From contig JAGIQG010000020.1 of the NCBI GenBank assembly GCA_024679065.1, positions 18,848,001-18,912,000 on the forward strand: DNA of 64,000 bases, in the 5' to 3' direction. Both the position numbers and the translations under genes were made by a program. Position 1 is the first letter of the stretch; each line of letters starts with the position of its first letter. This document shows, piece by piece, positions 1,680 to 57,274 of the stretch. The DNA is from Sphyrna mokarran. Its lineage: Eukaryota. The notes below the pieces were generated by a model. That model was not told where the DNA came from and did not search any database. It saw only the letters and a program-made list of their open reading frames with translations.

Positions 1680-2250
1680 TAAAGTTTCACAACACCAATT
1701 TTAAATCCAACCAATTTATTTGATAGTAAATTCACGAGCTTTCGACACAATGGCCTTCGTCAGCCAAATGCAGTGTTCTGGACTGCAATAGCACTCATAC
1801 CAACACAGACAGTCATAGATTGCTGATTAGAATGCGAATCCTTACATCTAACCTGCTATTCAAGTGTTAAAGTGGCTAACAATGTGTGTGAAGGGAATCC
1901 TGAGCATTTGTTAGAGAATTGTGTATTTTCTCCAGACAGCACAGTAAGTGAGGTTTTTTGCTAACCAAGGCAAGTTATGGGGGTTACAGATAGTGTGTCA
2001 TGAAGCCAAGATCCCTGTTAAGACCGTCCTCATGTGTGCGGAGCTTGGCTATCAGTCTCTGCTCAGCGACTCTGCGCTGTCGTGTATCACGAAAGCCCCC
2101 TTGAAGAACATTTCCCCGCAGGTCGGAGGCCGAATGCCCATGACTGCTGAAGTGTTCGCCCACAGGAAGGGAACTGTTTTGCCTGGTGATTGTTGAGCGA
2201 TGCTCATTCATCCGCTGTCGTAGTGTCCTGGCTAACTCAAGGCAGTACAT
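1680..2250 (-). mobile_element. Penelope-like retroelement 3' fragment (GIY-YIG C-terminal part plus 3' terminal region)
   Basis: ORF 1984-2250(-) RTLRQRMNEHRSTI...LPVGEHFSSHGH...RRVAEQRLIAKLRTHEDGLNRD is typical of the PLE endonuclease end; downstream sequence matches the terminal sequence of the 44.6 and 48.4 kb elements. Confidence 0.85.
1729..1769 (-). ncRNA. Minimal type I hammerhead ribozyme-like motif in the PLE terminus (stem I degenerate)
   Basis: Minus strand CTGACGA-A-GGC cattgt GTC-GAAA-GCT-C: core boxes, 3-bp stem II, palindromic AGCT stem III. Confidence 0.55.
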
Positions 2251-31046: not shown

Positions 31047-31294
31047 TAGAGAGAAAGCTCCGGGTTGACTGTTTGGGGAGATGCGTCCGAGCTCTGCTGC
31101 CACCGCTGAACAGTCTCACTTTCAGTTCATGTGAAGACCCCCCCCCCCGTCCCACCACCACTACCCCAACCTCCAACCAACCCCCCCCTCCGCAACCCCA
31201 CACACACCCACCCAACCAACAGAAAAAAATATTATAATAGTAATAACGATGCGCCTGTAAGCGAGACAGTACGACAAGAGAATCCGGGGAGTGG

Positions 31295-31686
31295 ATGAAT
31301 TTACCGATGAGAGAGCCAGTTATTCCGGGGACAAGTATGGCTTACCATCCGTTCTTACCTCACCGGGCACCGGATTTTGCGATGAGCGCCGTGCTGGGAC
31401 ATCAGCCTCCTTTCTTCCCGGCCCTGGCGCTGCCTCCGAGCGGCCCGGCCGCCCTCACCCTGTCGGGCGGACTCGGCAAGCCCCTCATGGATCAGCTTGT
31501 GGGCGCAGGTGAGGCCGGGATCGCTCTGTCGGCGATGGGCCACCAGTCCTCGCATCTGCGGCCTCTCAAGACTCTGGAGCCCGAGGAAGAAGTGGAAGAC
31601 GATCCGAAAGTTATCCTGGAGGCGAAAGATTTGTGGGATCAGTTTCACAAGTGTGGCACTGAAATGGTTATCACCAAGTCTGGAAG
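31295..31686 (+). CDS. TBX3: TBX3 coding exon 1 (N-terminus and start of T-box)
   Basis: [44 protein letters not shown]...[31 protein letters not shown] closely matches the vertebrate TBX3 N-terminus; donor AG|GTACAG at 31687; 392 nt, phase 2. Confidence 0.97.
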
Positions 31687-32823
31687 GTACAGCGCACTTT
31701 CCCATACAAGAGAGCAATGCCGACATCACCGATTCGAGATCTTTACAGTTATTTTAATATCCAGCCGTGAATAGTTACGATGCCGAGTAATGTGTGCATT
31801 TATATTTATAATACAAATTAGAGGGTTGTGGGATTTGAACAGGCGAAATAGATTTAATTGAGAAAAGCGGCTAGTTTATATTCGCCTAAATCTGTCAAGG
31901 GCTTTTGCCACGCTTCCTGTAGAATGATCCATTTTATGGAGATAATTTGCCTCGAAAAATGCAGTCACTTATTTATTGAAGTGGTCCCCACAACAAAACA
32001 TTTAGTCTGCACCTCTGTTGATGCGAGGGGACAATTCGGATCGCTAGACTAATGTAGGGCACGCTCGGATAAAAATATTGCAACTTTTTTAAAAAAATAA
32101 ATGCTAATGCAATTAATTTAAATAGCTTCTTCCTTAGGATGGGGGAGGTCACATGTGATCTGCAGAGGGGCCGATAGGTGATATTTTACAGAAGTTCTAA
32201 TTCATTGAATTTCAAGCAATCCCAGGATGGGAACCAGCAGACGCGTTTGTAAATAATGTGCAGGATTAAGGCTCCGCTCAGTACTTAGTTTCAAGGGTTG
32301 TCTGGAACTGCTGGGTGTTGCAATTTATCTCGGTGGGATTGGGGGAATTGTTGGGGGGAGGGTGATGGCTGGCAAGCGTATAGCAGATTCTTTTCACGAC
32401 ACCTGTGATGGGAACAGTTTAACTCACGCAGTTTTTTTTTATGGCACCAATTGGTGATTACAAAACCATAAAGGTTGAGTGAGCCGCGGCCTTACCCAGG
32501 TAGCCAACGCGCATATACCTAGGATAGGGTCGCTAGTCGTATTTGTATCACTCTTTCCCAGAAACATTGAAATTTAAGCTGAAATATCTCTGGAGGGAAC
32601 CGACTGGTTCTCTAACTTGGCCCTGCATCTTTTATAAACAGCTGGATTTTGTGTATGTAAACCTTAAACACTCATGGCAAGTTATCTAAAGAACGCTGTT
32701 GCAGGTTTGACAATACTTCTAAAACCGAGGGTCACTGAAATGGATTGGATCAAACATTTCACACATAGTAGATATCTGTGAATCAAAGCCCCAGTGTAAA
32801 AAAAAGCCCAGAAACCTGGCTAA

Positions 32824-33213
<390 letters not shown>

Positions 33214-34240
33214 TAGTTGAATGATTTAGCAACAAATAGTAATATGCTTCTACTTTAGCCGGGCTGGGGTTAAAATGCTAAAATATTTTCCGCATTCAGA
33301 ATATTTTTTAAAGCACAAACTTGTATTGATATGAGGGCTTTACATTTTTTTGCACTATTTTTCTATGTGTGATGACTGTGTTCTCAAACTGAGGTATTGT
33401 GAAGATCGGCCATTTTAAGTAACTGGGATTGTGCAAGTATTTGATCGTTGGGATCATATTTTATAATTTTCTCTGACACTGCAAGTGATAAGGCTTAGTC
33501 ACATGTCAACTTTCTCGACATTCCGTTTGTAAATCTCGGTGGCAATGGACAATGACTTGTAGGGGAAAATATTTAAAATCTCAACACATTTTGGCAAATC
33601 TGCAATTTATTAAGCATTATGCTCGCTGGCGAGAGAGAGAGAAAAAAATCCAGTCACTGTAATAACAATGACGATACCAGTAACTCCATTAGTCCAGGCA
33701 TTTTAATATGATCCTCAAAATGCAGGGCACTGAGCAGACTGAAATTGTTTATGCTTAGAGAACAGTCGTTTACTATTTAACTCACACCATTCTCAATTAC
33801 TACCGTGCATGTCAGCATTGTGTGTGAACCGTCTTGCCGGTATAGACACATATGTAGGGAGGCCAGAGGTGCACACGTGTAAGCAGATATTTGTAGATAG
33901 GCATAATATATTTCTAAACCGGTTAGTTTTCATTTTGCAAGTGCTTACACAGTGAGACAGGCCATAGTGCAAATGTTAATCGAGTCGTCAGCTGTTCATG
34001 TAGAAGGACGGATTTACACGCTTGCTGAACTCTGTCCTTTCCTGTGAAATCTTTTATACTGGCTATTAGCTTATATTATTGCGGATCGTCCGTTAATAAG
34101 CAGTGTGCAATTAAACAATAAAACGATATAATAACATCACATTTAGCCAACAGCCTGGCTGAATCTAGAAGCAGTCATACCATGTGGACAACTGCACTCG
34201 CTTTGGTCGGGTTGTAATTTGCTTGATTTGTCCTCTTTAG

Positions 34241-34471
<231 letters not shown>

Positions 34472-35871
34472 TGATATAAAAAAGATCAAAATATGCACGA
34501 TTTTGTGAAGCTTCTTCCTCTTGTCTATTTATTCTGATCGGTAGGATATTTTTAAAAAAATGGCAGGCCCATTTAACCCGCAAGAAGGTTTGCTGAATAT
34601 GTTGCACAGACTGGGTCTCCTTTCGATCTGATGATTTGCTTTGTAATGTCAGTTTTTGGCAAGGGTTACACTGTGTGGCTGTGGACCCAAGGCTGTAAGA
34701 CATATGTTTGTGTGGGACGTGAGTTCGCAATTTTGTTATTGCCAGGTAATAGGATTTAATAGATTTCTAAAGTGTTATTAAATTACAGTCATTATAAAAA
34801 AAGACATTTCACACTCTTTATTGGCAATGCATGCGGGTGGACAATAGATGTTAAGCCAAGGTGTTATGTGGGGAGTATTGTGCTCATTCACAGACATCTG
34901 AGGATGAACAATTGAGTTAATTATTGTTGATAATTTTGTCCCAGTAATTTTTTAAGGGACTTGGAACCCTTTTCGTTGGTATCTAACTCCTCCTCAGACT
35001 TTTGATTAGTCAGCGAATCTTATTAAGAGAGTTGCCGCTAAGTACATTGTCTGCAAGCGAGTTGATAATTCTTGATCGTGCGCTGTTGATCATGGGTTGT
35101 CTCCTGCAGAGAATAAAACTGATTAGGAAAAAGGCTGTTATGATGATAAATGAAATGACGTTAACATGCTTGGGTGTTGGATCTGTTCCTGGTCCCTGTT
35201 GCATTATTATCTCCAGTTCATTATTTTAAAGGACAATGATTTCAACCTAGTTAAATCCTCGGCCCTATTGAAAGGAGGATGAGAATGGGCCATAAAGTTA
35301 CTGTTGACTTAGAGTCAACAGTGAGCAAAAGACGGTGCTGACGCCAGACCCGGCTTGCACCCTATCTCTCCCTGATAAAAAGGTGCCTGCCTGGCTTGTA
35401 CTCGCTCACACGCGGGTTATCATGAATCGAAGGTGATTTATTTGGACGAGGGAGGGTACAGATCCGTGGATTGCACCTTGCATTTAATAAATACTGTGAT
35501 TTAAACGGCAGTAGCACTGAACCCAAGTTTCTGCACCGATATATTCTAACAGTGTGGTTGTGTTCAGTGTTGGCCCACAGTTAAATGCGATGAAGGCAGA
35601 ATTAGTGGGAAGGAAACGTTACAGCCCCAGATCAGGTACAGATGGATAATAGATTGAAGTGTTTAATGCCGCGTTAACATAATTCCACACTTATTTACTC
35701 TAAACAGTAATGAGAAGTAATAACGTAATTACGATTTGATATCTGGCCTCCGAATTTCTCTGGTAACTTTTTCAGTAGAGCTGCGCATTCCCAGTGAAGT
35801 TTGTAACTGACTGTCGTACTGTCCCGCCGAGCAACGAGAAAGTATTTTAAACTTGCATACTTTCCGTCTAG

Positions 35872-35948
35872 ATAACCCAGCTAAAAATCGACAACAATCC
35901 ATTTGCCAAAGGATTTCGTGACACGGGCAATGGGAGAAGAGAGAAGAG
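35872..35948 (+). CDS. TBX3: TBX3 exon 4 (end of T-box, start of NLS)
   Basis: Not in the ORF track; read by hand: tttccgtctag| ITQLKIDNNPFAKGFRDTGNGRREK(R) |GTGAGT; 77 nt. Confidence 0.97.
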
Positions 35949-36315
35949 GTGAGTTTAGTTGGGTTCAGATCGATTTATCAAATGGGTGGACTGTTTGGGG
36001 CCTGGTTCTATCCATGATCTGATAAAACGCTGACATCCTCCCAGTAAGACAAGAAACGGGGGAGGGGGTAGGGTGGGAATTTAGGAATTCTCGCATTTTG
36101 CCACGGCGTGGTATCTTTTGGCGTTTGCTCTTGGTGGCTACCTTAGCTGTTCTTTTTTTTGTTTAAAAGCGACTGCCCAGACAATGTTAACGCACAAACC
36201 ACAATCCAACATGACTAGAATGCAGGATGAAATAAAACTAAAAATGATAGGGTCAGCTATGGGATAACTCGAAACTTAAATCATTGCCCGTCTTGTGTTT
36301 TTTTAATATAAAAAG

Positions 36316-36479
36316 AAAACAGTTGGCAATTCAATCCCTCCGAGTCTATGAGGAGCAGCAGAAGGGCTCCAAAGAGAATGGGACATCGGACGACTCATCC
36401 AGTGAGCAACCGGCTTTCAAATGCTTCGGACAGACTACCTCCCCCGCTGTTTCCACGCCAGGAACTGCCAACTTAAAAG
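36316..36479 (+). CDS. TBX3: TBX3 exon 5
   Basis: (R)[54 protein letters not shown] resembles the TBX3 post-T-box segment; acceptor ataaaaag|, donor G|GTTATT; 164 nt keeps the frame. Confidence 0.92.
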
Positions 36480-36814
36480 GTTATTATTTTGTTACCTGCA
36501 AAGGGGTCTTGTTTGTTCTTTTTTATATGTATAAAAGGCGCGACTAAAGTTTGTGTTGCACTCGCACATTAATTGAGTGTATGTTTGTATTGAAGATCCT
36601 TATCACCCCTCAGCCCAGTAACTCAGCGCTGCACAAGATGCTTCTATTTACTGACCCGCTGCTGTAGAATTGGGTTCCGAGAGAGCATTCGCCCCTGTGT
36701 GCACACGCTGGAATTGTGTGGCATTTAATGACTTGAAAATAGAATAAGAAATCTCCTTACCCGGTAAAACTATATCATAAACTATCATAATTATCATATC
36801 ATTATATAATCATA

Positions 36815-37118
36815 TAATCTGAGAACCCCTGCAGTGCAGAAGGTGGCCATTTGGCCCATCGAACCTGCATCAACAATCCCACCCATGCCTTATCCCCGTA
36901 ACCCCAAGTATTTACCCCCTGAGACGGAGGATCAATTTAGCATGGCCAGTGCATCTCACCAGCACATCTTTGGACTGTGAGAGGAAACTGGAGCACTCGG
37001 AGGAAACCCACGCAGACACGGGGAGAATGTGCAAACTCCACAGCGCCAGGCCGGAAACCGGAATTGAATCCGGGGGCCTGGCATTGCGAGGCTACAGTGT
37101 CGTCCACTTTGCTGCCCA
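36815..37118 (-). mobile_element. HE1/V-SINE-like SINE, tail type A, antisense in TBX3 intron 5
   Basis: GGAGGAAACCCACGCAGACACGGGGAGAATGTGCAAACTCCAC core; tail extended by a TATCATAA-like repeat at 36770-36818. Confidence 0.9.
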
Positions 37119-37385
37119 CATGTATATGTAACAAAACAATATTTTCTGTTTAAAATGCTGTAACAAGAAGGCCCAGAGAGACGGGGTGTGGATTCCCTGC
37201 ACTTAAATTGTCATTGTCTATTTCAACAGCGTGGTGTCAGTGCGTTGTGGTTTCTTAGTGGGAAATGTCACTTTCAGAGATACCCCGCAGACAGTATTAC
37301 TAACCGAGTGCTGAGAAAGACCGCCGTATCTCAGCTGTTACTTCTTTAAACTTATGTTTTAAAAATTGCTGTATCCGTATCTCAG

Positions 37386-38038
37386 GCGCTCTGCAAAGCG
37401 ATGAGGAAGAAAGCGACATGGACAGTAAGGACGAGCCCCTTCAGGAAGGGCCGGACTCAGGAAAGCTGTCAGCAGCTAGCGAGGAACGCGACCCCATCAA
37501 ATCGCACCCACGCCCTTCGGAGTCTGGGAGCAGAGTCAGAGAACATGAAAGCTCGAGGACTGACAAGAGCTTGACGGATTTGCAGCGCAGCCCGACTACC
37601 ACCCCCTCCAGCACCAGAGTCGTTAATGGCGAGGGCCCCGAGATCAAAAGTCCAGTCCCAGACCATCACCAGAAAGCGGATGAATCCAGTGCTTTGGGCA
37701 AGGAGCCCTACTCGCCTCTGACCGTCCAGACGGATAGTATCTCGCACCTGAACCACGGACACTTACAGAACCTCGCCTTTTCTCATAATTTATCTGGCCA
37801 GCACTTCTTTACCCCACTGGGCGCGGGACACCCCCTTTTCTTGCACCCCAGCCAGTTTGCTATGGGTGGGGCCTTCCCAAATATGGCAGCAGGTATGGGT
37901 CACCTGCTAGCCTCAATGTCGGGCACCGCGGGAGGAATCAGCGGCTTGGACACACTTGTTTCTTCACAGCAGGGACTAGCTGGCGGATCGGCGACAACTC
38001 TCCCATTTCACCTCCAACAACAAGTCCTGGCCTCTCAG
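37386..38038 (+). CDS. TBX3: TBX3 exon 6
   Basis: Acceptor ccgtatctcag|; ...SPLTVQTD...LGAGHPLFLHPSQFAMGGAF...TLPFHLQQQVLASQ; donor |GTAAAC at 38039; 653 nt. Confidence 0.93.
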
Positions 38039-38766
38039 GTAAACCTCCCTTCTTGTCATTGCCTGTATTCCAACAATGTATTACATCAAGCATTTCATTA
38101 CTTCTCTTGCTAAGTAACTTGGCTGATAAATATTTGAGTATTACTTTTTAAGTCAATTTTTAAAAATTAAAATGGTAGAAAATGGACTTTCCGAGAACAG
38201 CATTTACAAATCGGCCTTGTGTCATATGTGAGGTACTGAAGCCTTTGAGAAAATAAAAAAACACGTTGAATCTCCGACTTTCCGTTTCTAACCTCACCCT
38301 GAGATTGATTGTAAACGCCAGATGAGTGATACAAGATAGATCATCTTAAGATATTTAAAAAATACTTATAATGCAAAATATAGAATATTAATCAAGATAA
38401 ACTTTCCGAGTGGCTAAATAGCATCACATTTCATATCTCTCATTCCATTTGACTTATGTTCTGTCTGTTTCTCTGAGCAATTATAGCAGAGATAGAGGGG
38501 AGCAAGATATTTGCATGTAATTACAGACTCCGGTGTTACCAGGACTCAAATTTAAATAACTCTAAAGTGTGTACTTTGGACGGGAGTTTAAGATGCTCTA
38601 CAATGTCTACATGCCTCATTTCCGTAAATCTGCACAAACTGTTGAATTACTTCTGGGTTAATGGATTCACTGAACGAGGGGAATCCAGTCTAATCCATCC
38701 CTATTGTAACGGCAATTAGCATTGGTTGTTGCAAACATGAACTGACTTTTCTCGTTACGTTGACAG

Positions 38767-39231
38767 GGTCTGGCGATGTCACCTTTCGGTAGCCTTTTCC
38801 CCTATCCTTACACCTACATGGCTGCTGCGGCGGCGGCTTCCGTGCCCGCCGGAGTCCCGTCGTCGGTCGCGTCCTCTATCCACCGCCATCCGTTCCTCAG
38901 CGCTGTGCGGCCCCGCTTGAGGTATAGCCCTTACACCTTTCCCGTGCCCGGCATGGACAACAGCAGCTTGCTGGCCACCACCCTGCCCACCATGGCCACC
39001 CCCGGCGAGGCGAAGGGGGTGAACAGCATGGCCACCAGCCCCGTGTCAGCCGGCTTGGACTCGGGCTCTGAGGTCAACAGCAGGTCCTCCACCCTCTCCT
39101 CGGGATCGATCTCCTTGTCGCCGAAACAGTGTTCAGAGAAAGAGACGCCCAACCAGCTCCAGAACATCCAGCGCCTGGTCAGCGGACTGGAAACGAAACA
39201 GGATCGGTCAAGCCGGAGCGATTCCCCTTGA
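38767..39231 (+). CDS. TBX3: TBX3 exon 7 coding part (C-terminal repression region, TGA stop)
   Basis: Acceptor ttgacag|; [23 protein letters not shown]...RPRLRYSPY...[24 protein letters not shown]; C-terminus fits TBX3 rather than TBX2. Confidence 0.97.
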
Positions 39232-44207: not shown

Positions 44208-44488
44208 CTCGGTATGTTGGTACAGTGGTTAGTGCTGATGCCTCACAGCACCAAGGACCTGGGTTTGACTCCTGGCTTGGGTCATTGTCTGTGTGGAATC
44301 TGTGTATTCTCCCTGCATCTGTGTGGATATTTTCCGGATGCTGCAGTTTCCTCCCACAGTCTGAAAGACGTGCTGGTTAGGTTCATTGACCCGAACAGGT
44401 GCCTGAATGTGGCGACTAGGGAAATTTCACAGTAACTTCACTGCAGTGTTAATGTAAGCCTTATTTGTGACTAATAAATAAACTTTAT
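44208..44488 (+). mobile_element. V-SINE-like SINE, tail type B
   Basis: CAGTGGTTAGTGCTGATGCCTCACAG head; tail GGCGACTAGGGAAATTTCACAGTAACTTCA...AATAAATAAACTTT. Confidence 0.88.
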
Positions 44489-44566
44489 ACCTCAATCCAC
44501 TTTCTTCCCTTATCCCCATAACCTCAATTCCCTTACTGATTGAAAATCTGTCTATCTCAGCCTTGA

Positions 44567-44750
44567 TATGGAGATGCCTACGTTGGGTTGGGGTAAACAC
44601 GGTAAGAAGTCTGACAACACCAGGTTTAAGTCCAACTGATTTATTTGATAGTAAACTTGCAAGCTTTTGAGTTTCCTCTCTTCATTCACCTGACGAAGAG
44701 GGGAACCTGAAAAGCTTGTGATTTTACTGATGTTGTCAGACTTCTTGCTG
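44567..44750. mobile_element. Fold-back PLE-terminus element with hammerhead-like core and 14-bp TSD
   Basis: Perfect 16-bp IR 44604-44619/44731-44746 plus inner IRs; CTGACGA 44690, GAAA 44709; flanks TATCTCAGCCTTGA (44553-44566) and TATCTCAGTCTTGA (44751-44764). Confidence 0.8.
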
Positions 44751-44899
44751 TATCTCAGTCTTGAACATACTTAACAATCCAACTTCTACATCCTCTGTGC
44801 TAAATAATTCCATAGATTCATGGTAGTGAGAAATTCCTCCTCATCTTAAAGTGACTGCTTACTCTGAGATTATGTCCCTTGGTCCTAGATTCTTCCACA

Positions 44900-45072
44900 A
44901 TAGAATTCCTACAATGCAAAGGAAAGCCATTTGGCCCATCGAGTCTGCACTGACTCTCCAGTAGAGCATCTTACCCATGCATTTACCCTGCTAATTCCTC
45001 TAACCTACACACTTTTGAAATCTAAAGGGCAATTCAGCATGGCCAATCTACCTAACCTGCACATCTTTGGAT
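44900..45072 (-). mobile_element. 5'-truncated type A SINE
   Basis: GCCATTTGGCCCATCGAGTCTGCAC...GCATGGCCAATCTACCTAACCTGCACATCTTTGGA. Confidence 0.8.
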
Positions 45073-46195: not shown

Positions 46196-48347
46196 ATTTT
46201 AAAAGATGATTAATCCTTTTAAAAGATTTAAAATTTTAAAAGATGTTCGATACCAGCTGACTTTCTCTGGGCAATTCCTGGCCTTTACTTGATACCAATT
46301 CTACAACAGCAAATTGAGATCAGCTATTCAGGAAAGGGATTGAACATAAACTGTGTATGTGTAAGGTGGGGGGTCGGGGGGCGCAGTGTGATACTCCCAG
46401 CTCACTGTACTGCTTGAGTAGTGCAGTGGACTAGGAAACATCAGTGTTCCACGGGATACCTGTTGGATGTCATGGCCTTCTCGCATCTCCCAGACAAAGA
46501 TGTAATCTGCTATGCGCAGGAAATCAGATTAGTGGTTCCGGAAGGGAATTTTCTGTGTTCACTAGCATCTCCCCCTCTTACTTTCTGCTGGTTTACAGCA
46601 GGGTTTACAATTGCTCCACACTAAGGGGGAACAGATGGCCAACCCCGCTGGAAGGAAGAGAACTATTGAGGCCCCCTCTGGAGATTGGGAATAAGGTGGG
46701 GTGGTGATCCTTGGGCAAAGCCATTCTAGCACTGTCAAAGAGATACCAGGCACTGGGCAGTGCCAAGGAGGTGGGGCCAGTTGATGGGGACGGGACCCAT
46801 TGCAAATCTGCAAGTGGAATGATGGCAATCGGGGCTGGTTGGAGATCAAAGGGGCATAAGGGCTGGCCCAGGGAGGTCTGAGAGACTAGCAATCAGAGGT
46901 AGAAGGGGGTCAGAAGGCCAGTGAGGGGGGCTCATGGAGTTGGCAAGCAATCAGGCTAGCCAGCAGTGCGGGGCCACTGTACATGTGCCAATCCCTGCAC
47001 TGATAGATCGGTGCATGTGTAGTGGCCTGCTCAGTGCTATGCTTGGGTGGGAACCCCCCAGGCCTCCGATTTTCTAAATGAATTTCATTAGGGCATTCCG
47101 TGATGCACAGAGCATCAAAAATTCATTCTGGAAATCATGCTAAAAATACCAGCAGGATTTACTCCCATTTTTCTGCACATTGGAAACTTAGAAATCTTTT
47201 GGGAGAATCCTAGCCATGCTGTTCTGCTGTTTTACTTCCAATGCATTCATCATCATGGTGCCCATATATCTGTGAAGTATATTTCACAAAGTAGGCCATG
47301 CTTTTATCAAACTGCAGAGCATGGCTTCCCACTTTTAGTCAGCCTGTTAAAGTAAGGCTGTATTTGGAGGCTTTGCATGTATATACATTATGTACACATA
47401 GGAATAGATTTTGAACTATAAATTTACAGGCCACCAATGTGCATTTGCAAGAATAATCTCCCATAGAAATAAATTAGGAAAAAGTTTTAGGCTTTTAAGT
47501 ATCGATGGCCTTATTGGAATATTAATGAATGAACTCAACTTTTTAAATGAAATTCTTTTGTCTGCTGTTTTAGCTGAGCTACAATCCATTTAAAATGAAC
47601 AGGCCTTTGTTAAACAAAAGTGTTTGCACAGCATAATTGAACATGTTTATATTGAGCATTAAACCCACTTTAAAGGGATAATTTATATTCTATTATTTCC
47701 CCATAAATAAATAACATAAAATCTCACATATTAATTAAACATTGAATTTATATGCAGTGTTAGATAAAGACAATGTAAGTGGCTTCAGACCTCCAACTAT
47801 CAAACGAACTTGACATTTGACTTTCAACTTGAAATGTGGAGGCGATGCTTGTGTTTATGATCAGCTATTTTTATACAAACTGTCAATTTTTATTTCCATC
47901 AGTGAAAACCTGGTGCATTCAATCACAGGCCATGATTTTAGCTTTATATCTGGACAGTAAGTTCAAAATCTAAGACCTTAACACCCTTGTACCGTAACCA
48001 AATCAGTAACACAGACATGATTGGTAGGATTTGCTTGTTTCGACACCTTTGTTTTAAGTGAGCTCTCAATAAATATTCACAGTGAATTCATATAGTTGTC
48101 AGCTTAATACATAAAGACTGAATATATCCTAGGGTTATGTCAACATTGTACCTAATAGTTTGAGATCAGTAGCTAAAGAACTGATTTACAGGGTACTTAA
48201 TTTAAAACTGCCTGGCTGTGAATTTTAACATGCAGGTACAAGTGAATGTATTTCAAATTCTGACACATTTTAAACATTTTGAAGATGTCGTTAAGAGGAT
48301 CTGTGCATTAAAAATTTTACAAGATATTCTGTGCAGGTTGATTAAGT

Positions 48348-48550
48348 AAGAAGTCTCATAACATCAGGTTTAAGTCCAACAAGTTTATTTGATAGTAATC
48401 CCACAAATGGTGTTCCTTTGTCAAGTTCCACATACCTGACGAAGGAACACTGTTTCCAAAAAACCTTGTGGAATTACTGGTTGGACTTAAACCTGGTGTT
48501 GTGAGACTTCTCACTGTGTTTACCCCAGTCCAATGCTGGCATCTCAACAT
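48348..48550. mobile_element. Fold-back PLE-terminus element with decayed hammerhead core and 14-bp TSD
   Basis: 32-bp IR with 2 mismatches (48349-48380/48480-48511); CTGACGA at 48436; flanks CAGGTTGATTAAGT (48334-48347) and CAGGATGATTAAGT (48551-48564). Confidence 0.8.
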
Positions 48551-48604
48551 CAGGATGATTAAGTGCAGAGGAGGCCCTAGTGCACTATTTAAAATAGGTT
48601 ACTG

Positions 48605-53589: not shown

Positions 53590-54640
53590 TTAGAATCATA
53601 GAATCATACAGGTTTATAGCATGAAAACAGGCCCTTCAGCCCAACTTATCCATGCTGTCCTTTTTTAAAAAAAACCCTAATCTAATCCCAATTGCCCACA
53701 TTTGGCCCATATTCCTCTATACCCATGTAACTGTCTAAATGTTTCTTAAAGTACCCTCCTCTAATATTATGTCCGGCAACTTGTTTCAGACATTTACCAT
53801 GATCTGTGTAAAAGAATTGCCCCTCTGGACACTTTTGTATCTCTCCCCTCTCATCTTAAACCTATGCCGTCTAGTTTTAGACTCCCCTACCTTTGGAAAA
53901 AGATATTAACTATCTAACTGATCTGTGCCCCTCATTATTTTGTAGACTCCAATAAAATCACCCCTCAGCTTCCTACACTTCAGAGAAAAAAGTCCCAGTC
54001 TATTCAGCCTCTTCTTATAACTCAACATTAAGTCCTGGTAGCATCTTCATAAATCTTTTCTGCACTCTTTCTAGTTTAATAATATCCTTTCTATAATAGG
54101 ATGACCAGAATTGCACACACTATTCCAAGTGCGGCCTTACTAATGTCTTGTACAACTTCAACAAGACATTCTAACTCTTGAATTCAATGTTCTGACTGAT
54201 TAAACATGCCGAATGCCTTCTTCACCAGTCTGTTCAACTGTGACTCCATTTTCAAGGAGCTAAGAATGATACTTTTACATCTCTTTGTTCTGTAACTCTC
54301 CACAATGCCCTACCATTAACTGACTAAGTTCTGCCCTGGTTCAATCTACCAAAATGCATCATCTCGCATTTGTCTAATTCAAACTCCATCTGCCATTCGT
54401 CAGCCCACTGGACCAATTGATCAAGATCCCGTTGCAATTGGAGATAAGGTTTTTCGCTGCCCACTATGCCACCAATCTGAGTGTCATCTGCAAAGTTCTA
54501 ACCATGCATCCTATATTCTCATCAAAATCATTAATATAAATGACAAATAACAGTTGACCCAACACTGATCCCTGAGGCACACTGCTGGTCAAGGCTTCCA
54601 GTTTGAAAAACAGCTCTCCACATCCACCCTCTGGCTTCTG
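53590..54640 (-). mobile_element. CR1-clade LINE 3' fragment (decayed RT)
   Basis: 3' tail TAGAATCATAGAATCATA; collinear with the 55.95-56.55 kb copy; extends into RT sequence (GTGTCATCTGCAAA = FADDT on the minus strand). Confidence 0.9.
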
Positions 54641-55949: not shown

Positions 55950-56548
55950 TTGATAGAGTCATAGAGTCTTGGAGGTTTACAGCATGGAAACAGGCCCTTC
56001 AGCCCAACTGGTCCATGCTGCCCTTCTTTGTAAAACCACTACGCTAGTCCCAATTGCCCTCATTTGGTCCATTTCTCTCTATATCCATCGTACCCATGTA
56101 ACTATCGAAATACTTTTAAAAAGACAAAATTGTACCCAGCTCTGCTATTGCATCTGGTAGCTTGTTCCAGATACTCGCCACTGTCTGTGTGAAAATAAAT
56201 TGCCCCTTTGGACGCTTTTGTATTAATCCCCTCTCACTTTAAACCATGCCCTATAGTTTTAGACTCCCCTGCTTTTGGGAAAAGATATTGACTATCTAGC
56301 TGATCTGGGCCTCTCATTATTGTACAGACTTTTGTAAGATCACTCTCAGCCTTCTATGCTCCAGAGAAAGAAGTCTCAGTCTATCCAGCCTCTCCTTATA
56401 ACTCAATCCATCAAGTCCTGATAGCATCCTGGTAAATCTTTTCTGCACTCTTTCTAGTTTATTAATATCCTTTCTATAATAGGGTGACCAGAATTGCACA
56501 CAGTATTCAAGTGTGGCCTTACCAATGTTTTGTACAACTTCAACAAGC
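55950..56548 (-). mobile_element. CR1-clade LINE 3' fragment
   Basis: ORF 56317-56565(-) LEYCVQFWSPYYRKDINKLERVQKRFTRML...LSYKERLDRL is the typical CR1 ORF2 C-terminus. Confidence 0.92.
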
Positions 56549-57274
56549 CATTCCACCTCCTTCATTTATGATCTCATTAAAGCAACAGAGACTTTTTAGA
56601 CTGAATAAAAGGAGCTTGCAAAGGGCATTGAGATGTGCTCTGAATCTTTGTCTAGTCAGAAAATTATCTACTTTATGTGATACCATGCAAAACAGACATT
56701 CATATCAGATTTGCTGATGTCAGTTTGGGGCAACATTTCGGGTACTAAGATTTGCCAAAGTGCTCTTTGGAAAAGGGAACTATCAGTCTGGGTTTCAGAT
56801 CCTGATTGTTGTTCCACAAATCCAGAACATGTGGCTGTCTGTGGTTATCCAGCAAGGATTAAGCAGTGACCTCCACCACTATAGGACTTTAATCCTAATT
56901 TACTTTTAATACTCATAACTCATCCAGATGCTGCTGCCACAGGCTTACATTTGCAAGGAGCAAGTCATCAGGAAATTGCAGAACCAGGGCCAGTGATTTT
57001 CCATCCAGTTAAATTAATGAATGGAAAACTAGGGGCTTTGGGTCTGTGATTTCCTGACTTGCACCCTGTGCAAACACCCCTCCTCATTGGGCAAATCTAA
57101 TCAGGAAATCTGCCCAATCATTTGGACTCGAGTAATGAATTTGGTTAATTTCCTGGAATGCTTGAGCTAATTCAAGATCAGATACAATCTAATTGAATGG
57201 TAGAGCTGGAATGAAAAGAGTTGAATAGTAAAGGTAATCCAACGGACTCTGTTCCTACTGTTAAATATGTTTGA

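What the first reader, a model, noticed from the sequence alone, without database searches (positions are those of the whole stretch)
44553..44764. Fold-back, hammerhead-bearing mini-retroelement inserted as a unit with a 14-bp TSD
Seen: a 184-bp non-coding segment that is largely one long hairpin (16-bp perfect outer IR; inner CAAGCTTTT/AAAAGCTTG and TTCCTCTCTTC/GAAGAGGGGAA arms). One arm reads TCAC-CTGACGA...AGG ggaa CCT-GAAA-AGCTT-GTGA, i.e. stem I TCAC/GTGA and both hammerhead boxes. It is flanked by a 14-bp direct repeat (1 mismatch) of the host CR1 sequence, and its arms match the non-coding end of the GIY-YIG Penelope fragment at 1680-1770. Known: Penelope-like elements carry minimal hammerheads in their pseudo-LTRs and often have inverted pLTRs. 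Inference: a non-autonomous, retrozyme-like PLE derivative with a hammerhead-derived motif on each strand.
Basis: partly seen in the sequence, partly recalled or inferred. Interest (0 to 1): 0.72.

Follow-up and report, generated by a model that had tools for sequence, protein, structure and literature searches.

The report
Fold-back Penelope retrotransposon stub, symmetric target
This hairpin is a real but decayed stub of a known kind of jumping gene (a Penelope-like retroelement), one of thousands of mirror-image insertions of many lengths in this genome, whose ends and mirror-symmetric landing sites suggest that the enzyme likely cuts both DNA strands about 13 bases apart and copies its RNA from both cuts at once.

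Summary
The hairpin, the 14-bp duplication and the + strand hammerhead motif are real; 20 of 24 paralogous host-repeat sites are empty. It is not a fixed-length retrozyme-like family. Among 90 tail-anchored relatives, 58 are fold-backs of 81-1056 bp with different junctions, and long ones run into the GIY-YIG/RT reading frame of an autonomous Neptune-like Penelope element. The window copy has a 28-bp deletion, a degraded + strand core and no intact - strand hammerhead. The layout (inverted pLTR, one-sided tail, TSD) is published. What the genome adds, from a young sister subfamily: TSDs of 13±1 bp (47 of 48), a dyad-symmetric target around the TSD that also fits the window site, equal target microhomology at both outer ends, either arm the longer one, and a tenfold hot spot of arm ends just 5' of the hammerhead. 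Best model: a dimeric enzyme primes two cDNAs, one from each strand, and short stubs run off the RNA's 5' end. The scan reported this pattern before in this and other genomes. The object is ordinary; the mechanism is testable.

The parts
44553..44566 (+). Left TSD copy (14 nt; its last 3 nt, TGA, also match the start of the element's tail)
44548..44552 (+). Left half-site of the symmetric target motif (CTGTC)
   Evidence: window empty site scores at the 98.9th percentile of 2000 control positions
44564..44600 (-). One-sided ~37-nt PLE tail (3' end of the element, sense on the - strand; reads into the ORF N-terminus in tandem units)
44601..44683 (-). Arm 1: pLTR copy continuous with the tail, 5'-truncated inside hammerhead stem II; lacks the CUGANGA box, G12 changed to A
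44678..44683 (.). 6-nt junction microhomology (CTCTTC) shared by both arms; the natural sequence upstream of the hammerhead in this subfamily also has it
   Evidence: sequence; locus L058
44678..44750 (+). Arm 2: inverted, tail-less pLTR copy with a 28-bp internal deletion between 44728 and 44729
44684..44721 (+). Degraded minimal type I hammerhead (stem I TCAC/GTGA, CTGACGA at 44690-44696, family cut site 44717/44718); passes a relaxed descriptor only in a shifted register; forming it inside the insert costs 24.5 kcal/mol
44751..44764 (+). Right TSD copy
44764..44769 (+). Right half-site of the target motif (partial match)
44490..44900 (-). Host repeat: decayed 3' end of a LINE ORF2 (CR1-like, label recalled), interrupted by the insert
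1682..2250 (-). Related PLE fragment: GIY-YIG-type C-terminus, 3' UTR and pLTR
48334..48563 (-). Second fold-back copy in the window, with its own 14-nt TSD and a different junction

Best explanation
The insert is a short, decayed insertion of an autonomous Penelope-like retroelement, made of two head-to-head copies of the element's 3' end inside one target-site duplication, and it was likely built by twin priming from both strands of a staggered cut. SHOWN: arms, tail, TSD, continuity of longer copies with the RT/GIY-YIG frame, a symmetric target motif, microhomology at both outer ends, a hot spot of arm ends. INFERRED steps: (1) a dimer of the RT-endonuclease binds a weakly palindromic site, roughly (C)TG(G/T/C)C-N12/13-G(C/A/G)CA(G), and nicks both strands 13 nt apart, leaving two 3' overhangs; (2) each 3' end pairs with about 2 nt of element RNA and primes a cDNA, one at the tail end and one about 38 nt further in, which makes the one-sided tail; (3) each cDNA stops on its own, most often 125-160 nt from the tail end, probably because priming at the upstream pLTR runs off the 5' end of a transcript that starts in the pLTR; (4) the two cDNA ends are joined through 1-6 nt of microhomology, in this copy at a small inverted repeat around the hammerhead's 5' edge; (5) repair gives the TSD. 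The copy is a dead end: it later lost 28 bp and G12, and its hammerhead is buried in the hairpin.
For: Lengths form a continuum: 81-1056 bp in 58 of 90 window-family loci and 130-4222 bp in 54 of 90 young-subfamily loci. An 894-aa RT + GIY-YIG open frame stands in a 5.9-kb palindrome with the same layout, and window-family ends are contiguous with 80-92% identical coding sequence. TSD in 39 of 50 old copies (median 12) against 1 of 200 shuffled pairs, and in 47 of 48 young copies, 39 of them 12-14 bp. A symmetric matrix trained on 18 young sites scores 22 of 29 held-out young, 9 of 11 single-arm and 22 of 39 old-family sites above the control 95th percentile, with a peak at spacing 12-13. One repeat site was hit in both orientations in three cases, and the window's own site was hit the other way round in L279. 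Overlap between target end and element averages 2.2 nt at both outer ends against 0.7 by chance; >=2 nt in 27 of 47 at each end against 17%. The tail-less arm is longer by >=10 nt in 12 of 54 young copies, up to 67 vs 1960 nt, and the tail arm in 19. Stem II variants are mirrored in both arms (within-copy arm divergence 0.071 vs 0.104 between copies). The same junction recurs in flip and flop form with different outer ends. Arm-end hot spot: 53 of 125 arms at risk stop at 130-160 nt in the young set and 36 of 75 at 125-140 nt in the old set, including 7 of 29 single-arm copies that have no fold-back. It fits the in vitro work on the anole PLE: both strands cut and extended, two RT start sites bounding the tail, predicted dimer (PMC11167929, main text read).
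Against: All of it is inference from finished insertions. A single cDNA that folds back on itself and is then resolved with the tail at either end would also give lopsided arms. Microhomology at one end could come from repair, not priming, and my overlap count allowed isolated mismatches, which may inflate it. Only 2 of 27 variants shared by both arms are unique to one insertion, so the data cannot tell one template from two. The anole enzyme preferred AT-rich sites with an ATT motif, not this motif (PMC11167929). 23 of 54 young fold-backs have arms within 10 nt of each other, which also suits hairpin self-priming. No raw RNA reads were available to place the transcript start. Samples came from one contig and were picked by an exact word, so they lean to well-kept copies. 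29 of 90 young copies show no inverted arm at the junction, and only 11 of those 29 had a TSD at the arm end, so some insertions form otherwise or were altered later.
Confidence: 0.68

Rival explanations
1. Still a truncated by-product of the autonomous PLE, but made by self-priming: one cDNA (or an antisense RNA) folds back at a small palindrome and copies itself, and the endonuclease then resolves the hairpin, leaving the tail at one end.
For: Proposed for head-to-head PLE junctions in PMC3846280 (passages read); the tail was ascribed to endonuclease resolution in PMC8557442 (passages). The window junction sits on a 6-nt inverted repeat with a short loop. 23 of 54 young fold-backs are near-symmetric.
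Against: Loops of hundreds to about 2000 nt closed by 0-3 nt of homology; equal target microhomology at both outer ends; a symmetric target and a fixed 13-nt stagger; the same stop zone in single-arm copies.
Confidence: 0.2
2. One reading: a non-autonomous, retrozyme-like mini-element whose hairpin RNA is itself transcribed and retrotransposed as a unit.
For: A modal size class exists: 20 of 58 old fold-backs are 200-260 bp. Similar junctions recur among the best matches to the window copy. The family hammerhead looks selected: 23 of 80 arms pass the descriptor, and stem II pairs covary across 19 variants (71 of 76 cells paired, shuffled mean 52, 0 of 5000 shuffles reach it; relatedness not controlled). 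Animal non-LTR retrozymes are reported to derive from PLE pLTRs (bioRxiv 10.64898/2026.07.22.740005, parts 1-2 of 5 read).
Against: The exact window-type junction was found in 5 copies and its flip in 1 (lower bounds). The same junction occurs with at least five different loop II sequences, mirrored in both arms, and such variants also sit on ORF-linked copies. Copies with identical junctions have different outer ends. No tandem units, no hammerhead pair in the same sense; the ribozyme fold costs 24.5 kcal/mol inside the hairpin.
Confidence: 0.07
3. A foldback DNA transposon or MITE with long terminal inverted repeats.
For: Long inverted arms and a TSD of near-constant length with a palindromic target.
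Against: Arms are the 3' end of an RT/GIY-YIG element, one end has an unpaired tail, lengths vary by 5' truncation, and about a third of copies have one arm only.
Confidence: 0.02

Closest known systems
Insertion units of endonuclease-positive PLEs: pLTR, adjacent inverted 5'-truncated copy, one-sided 30-40-bp tail, TSD (Adineta vaga Pen2/Pen2a in PMC3846280; general scheme in PMC8557442; D. virilis Penelope in PMC2377424; passages of each read)
   Same: Head-to-head inverted pLTR, ~37-nt tail at one end, tail overlapping the ORF start, TSD, minimal hammerhead in the pLTR.
   Different: The body has shrunk to nothing; TSDs are 12-14 bp against 8-10 bp in A. vaga; the passages I read give no symmetric target, no fixed stagger and no stop zone at the hammerhead.
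Neptune clade of PLEs
   Same: C-terminal GIY-YIG and a CX4CXXC motif in the RT-EN linker at residue 756, the CX2-5CxxC linker that PMC8557442 gives for Neptune (and a linker motif for Nematis).
   Different: No tree was built, so Neptune against Nematis is not settled; microsatellite targeting, linked to this motif in that paper, is not seen here.
Poseidon PAc of Anolis carolinensis (PMC11167929, main text read)
   Same: Two RT start sites that bound the tail, both strands cleaved and extended, predicted dimer, hammerhead not needed for insertion.
   Different: [quoted passage not shown]
Minimal type I hammerheads of metazoan PLEs (PMC4209133, passages)
   Same: Conserved core, unpaired base 5' of stem II, near-absent palindromic helix III.
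   Different: The window copy is mutated and locked in a hairpin; activity untested.
Animal non-LTR retrozymes (bioRxiv 10.64898/2026.07.22.740005; PMC6155905 passages)
   Same: Small, PLE-derived, hammerhead-bearing, no own ORF.
   Different: Retrozymes are head-to-tail tandem units with an intact ribozyme in each; this is a single head-to-head unit of variable length.
L1 5' inversions by twin priming (recalled, not read here)
   Same: Both target strands prime cDNA and the two are joined by microhomology.
   Different: In L1 the second primer lands internally so the pieces do not overlap; here both start near the 3' end and give a palindrome.

Membership tests
EN+ Penelope-like element insertion | Linked to an ORF with RT and C-terminal GIY-YIG endonuclease | tested here: met
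   894-aa ORF with RVT_1 (2.7e-9) and GIY-YIG (4e-4, under cut-off) in a sister subfamily; window-family ends contiguous with 80-92% identical coding sequence
EN+ Penelope-like element insertion | Inverted 5'-truncated copy, head to head | tested here: met
EN+ Penelope-like element insertion | 30-40-bp tail at one end | tested here: met
   tail-less arm ends at reference position 31-48, tail end near 1
EN+ Penelope-like element insertion | Target-site duplication | tested here: met
EN+ Penelope-like element insertion | Minimal hammerhead in the pLTR | tested here: met
   23 of 80 family arms pass the descriptor, stem II covaries; degraded in the window copy
Neptune clade | CX2-5CxxC motif in the RT-EN linker | tested here: met
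   one match at residue 756
Neptune clade | RT groups with Neptune in a tree | not tested
   no reference PLE proteins were fetched
Non-LTR retrozyme | Head-to-tail tandem units, each with a complete hammerhead | tested here: not met
   single head-to-head unit in the window; no tandem mini-units seen among the 180 sampled loci
Non-LTR retrozyme | Fixed monomer length and sequence | tested here: not met
   81-1056 bp and 130-4222 bp, variable junctions
Non-LTR retrozyme | Self-cleavage and circular RNA | not testable with these tools
   only assembled contigs were on offer
Catalogued Dfam/Repbase family | Match to a library consensus | not testable with these tools
   no repeat library among the tools
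MITE / foldback DNA transposon | Symmetric terminal inverted repeats of a transposase family | tested here: not met
   one-sided tail; arms continuous with a retroelement ORF

The most novel reading that the evidence does not exclude
Penelope-like elements of this clade integrate unlike other target-primed retrotransposons: a dimeric GIY-YIG/RT protein recognises a palindromic, two-part DNA site, makes a 13-nt staggered double-strand cut, and primes reverse transcription from both 3' overhangs at two start sites about 38 nt apart. Palindromic insertion would then be the default product, and the abundant mini-palindromes would mark the transcript's 5' end just upstream of the hammerhead. This would explain the inverted pLTR and the one-sided tail in one step.
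Probability: 0.55. Interest if true: 0.68.

Novelty: new member of a known kind. Interest (0 to 1): 0.42.

Why it matters
The insert itself is ordinary debris. But how Penelope-like elements, the closest relatives of telomerase RT, make their inverted repeats and tail is still open: PMC3846280 proposed self-priming on an antisense template, and PMC11167929 explained the tail but not the inversion. A young, high-copy subfamily gives a predicted substrate (symmetric site, 13-nt stagger), two start sites and a stop zone, which turns that question into a direct bench test with an existing in vitro system. It also warns annotators that these ~220-bp palindromes mimic MITEs and retrozymes. I found no paper stating the symmetric target or twin priming for PLEs in eight searches of the held library; subscription papers, Repbase reports and supplements were not seen.

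Tried and rejected
Rfam scan of the window at E<=5: no hammerhead family hit, as expected for minimal PLE motifs. Pfam on the 87-aa window fragment: nothing. A single majority reference mis-mapped arms in the variable stem II; redone with that part down-weighted, where a few ends near 120-125 stay uncertain, so the long-arm/short-arm count rests on the young set. Four old loci (L058, L076, L097, L106) were set aside as interrupted or complex and counted as not fold-back; the old TSD test used 50 loci (those four, loci whose outer end mapped beyond position 47, and loci at the edge of the fetched DNA were dropped). In the young set 7 of 90 were cut off by the locus edge. Hammerhead cut site as a source of arm ends: a few old arms end at 100-105 (5 of 95 at risk), no clear peak, and the young set has a trough there (3 of 128 at 100-130); rejected as the main stop. 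Hammerhead structure as the stop: disfavoured, as arms stop after passing it and the young subfamily's stem I looks weak. RNA evidence: 7 runs listed, all contigs, best share 0.38; laying 3 of them showed only that related sequence is present, nothing on starts, cuts or circles. Shared private variants between arms: too few to decide. Pfam on five host-locus ORFs gave RT in two, but these are not shown to be contiguous with the host fragment. The first 'Poseidon-type' label was dropped after the linker motif was found.

Full report
Observation. The 14-nt direct repeat with one mismatch flanks 44567-44750; the perfect 16-bp and 9-bp inverted repeats are at 44604-44619/44731-44746 and 44660-44668/44710-44718; the + strand folds with z -8.35, 0 of 200 shuffles as good. 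The repeat is a true TSD: 20 of 24 other copies of the host repeat join both flanks across a single copy. The host reads like the 3' end of a LINE ORF2 on the - strand ('CR1' is a recalled label). The genome is 2.77 Gb; that it is a shark is my inference from recalled repeat types and from the scan's notes, not a tool result.

What it belongs to. The insert has thousands of relatives: 3,828 first-look candidates and 2,168 exact hits to a 32-nt tail word, 0 for the reversed control. A second copy lies at 48334-48563. The GIY-YIG-type fragment at 1990-2250 runs on the - strand into the same end sequence, so the element's sense in this insert is the - strand: inverted arm, then arm, then tail. 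Relatives show that arm 2 of the window copy has lost 28 bp, so it was about 212 bp when inserted.

Family or continuum. I took the first 90 of the 100 listed tail hits (all on one contig), chosen without regard to the centre. 58 of 90 have an inverted arm within 1 kb; total lengths are 81-1056 bp, junctions differ, and long arms run through the 3' UTR into the ORF. TSDs were found in 39 of 50 testable copies, median 12 bp, against 1 of 200 shuffled flank pairs. The window's exact junction was found in 5 tail-anchored copies and its flipped form in 1 (exact gapped patterns, so lower bounds). Similar junctions occur with at least five loop II variants, each mirrored in both arms, and such variants also sit on ORF-linked copies. 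The junction lies on a 6-nt inverted repeat that the linear element already has (L058). So it recurs; it is not inherited from a master mini-element.

The autonomous partner. A protein search gave 55,289 candidates and many long open frames. L143 holds an 894-aa open frame with RT and GIY-YIG inside a 5.9-kb palindrome with one tail; 18 of the 20 long loci fetched showed two inverted arms, but most were picked as inverted pairs. The linker has CX4CXXC, the Neptune-type motif of PMC8557442 (passages). This young subfamily is about 87% identical to the window family over 590 nt; window-family ends are themselves contiguous with coding sequence 80-92% identical to it. The tail reads in frame into the ORF's N-terminus, as in A. 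vaga (PMC3846280, passages).

Clean statistics from the young subfamily. 1,387 exact hits; 90 of the first 100 were examined. 54 are fold-backs, 29 have no inverted arm at the junction, 7 were cut off. 47 of 48 testable fold-backs have a TSD, 39 of them 12-14 bp. Junction overlap is 1-5 nt in 34 of 54. The tail-less arm is longer by >=10 nt in 12, the tail arm in 19, and 23 are within 10 nt. Arms stop at 130-160 nt from the tail end in 53 of 125 cases at risk, about ten times the rate elsewhere; 7 of the 29 single-arm copies stop there too. The old family has the same peak at 125-140 nt (36 of 75). This zone is at or just upstream of the hammerhead's 5' edge, not at its cut site.

Target site. 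Rebuilt empty sites show a mirror-symmetric motif around the TSD, about (C)TG(G/T/C)C-N13-G(C/A/G)CA(G). A symmetric matrix trained on 18 sites scored 22 of 29 held-out young sites, 9 of 11 single-arm sites and 22 of 39 old-family sites above the control 95th percentile, peaking at spacing 12-13; the two window sites score at the 98.9th and 98.7th percentile. The same repeat position was hit in both orientations in three cases, and another copy of the window's host repeat carries a tail-only insertion at the same site the other way round (L279). Both outer ends overlap the target by 2.2 nt on average against 0.7 by chance (the count allowed isolated mismatches).

The hammerhead. At family level it looks selected: 23 of 80 arms pass a minimal type I descriptor with a 4-6-bp stem I, and stem II stays paired in 71 of 76 cells over 19 variants (shuffled mean 52; relatedness not controlled). 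This matches the minimal PLE hammerheads of PMC4209133 (passages), which cleave poorly and as dimers. In the window copy the + strand passes only in a shifted register with a 3-bp stem II; the - strand fails; both arms have lost the family's G12. Alone, the + motif folds into the hammerhead stems but no better than shuffles (z -0.59); inside the insert that fold costs 24.5 kcal/mol. It is very likely inactive (inference).

Mechanism. The simplest account of all of this is twin priming by a dimer: a symmetric 13-nt staggered cut, two cDNAs started about 38 nt apart, independent stops, and joining by microhomology. It agrees with the anole PLE in vitro (both strands cut and extended, two start sites, predicted dimer; PMC11167929, parts 1-2 of 4 read). 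The stop zone is best read as the RNA's 5' end, since Penelope has an internal promoter in its pLTR (PMC2377424, passages), but no RNA data could test it. The main rival, a self-primed hairpin resolved with the tail at either end (PMC3846280; PMC8557442), is not excluded: near-symmetric arms are common and shared variants are uninformative.

Known and new. The layout is published for several PLE clades. The object fails the retrozyme tests (tandem units, fixed monomer; definition from bioRxiv 10.64898/2026.07.22.740005, parts 1-2 of 5 and passages). Eight literature searches found no statement of a symmetric PLE target or of twin priming in PLEs; no supplements were read, and Dfam/Repbase could not be searched. 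The scan's own notes report the same fold-backs, stop zone, flip/flop loops and a symmetric target in this and other genomes; I had reached these points before looking, except the Neptune label. Verdict: real, a new member of a known kind, with a testable mechanistic lead; interest 0.42.

Noticed in passing
window 48334-48563 (- orientation): Second fold-back PLE stub with its own 14-nt TSD, a different junction and a degenerate hammerhead; its site also fits the symmetric motif.
   Followed up: yes
L279:1456-1515: A tail-only (~35-45 nt) PLE insertion at the same host-repeat site as the window insert, in the opposite orientation: the site is a recurrent target.
   Followed up: partly
L163, L203, L229 (also TSDs of L176, L239); L250/L257; L226/L255: Independent young insertions at identical positions of other repeats, in both orientations; about 5 of 90 share one 13-mer.
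   Followed up: partly
L143:1303-7188: 5.9-kb near-perfect palindrome (arms 98.9% identical) with 894-aa and 845-aa open frames; one arm is one unit long and ends at the upstream tail end. The subfamily looks recently active.
   Followed up: partly
L143 / L147 pLTR: The young subfamily's hammerhead has a weak stem I, unlike the 6-bp stem I of the older family; its ribozyme may be degenerate although the element is amplifying.
   Followed up: no
L186, L204, L224, L145: Complex insertions with partial tandems and nested inversions that include the ORF start; useful for mapping template switches.
   Followed up: no
window 31247-39231 (+): Exon-like ORFs of a T-box gene (TBX2/TBX3-like, recalled from the translation); the insert lies about 5 kb downstream of the last one.
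   Followed up: no
window 44210-44484 and about ten other places: Many copies of a tRNA-like SINE (HE1-like, label recalled), one directly upstream of the host LINE fragment.
   Followed up: no
window 53591-54177 / 55954-56559: A 600-bp direct repeat pair at 80% identity, not examined.
   Followed up: no
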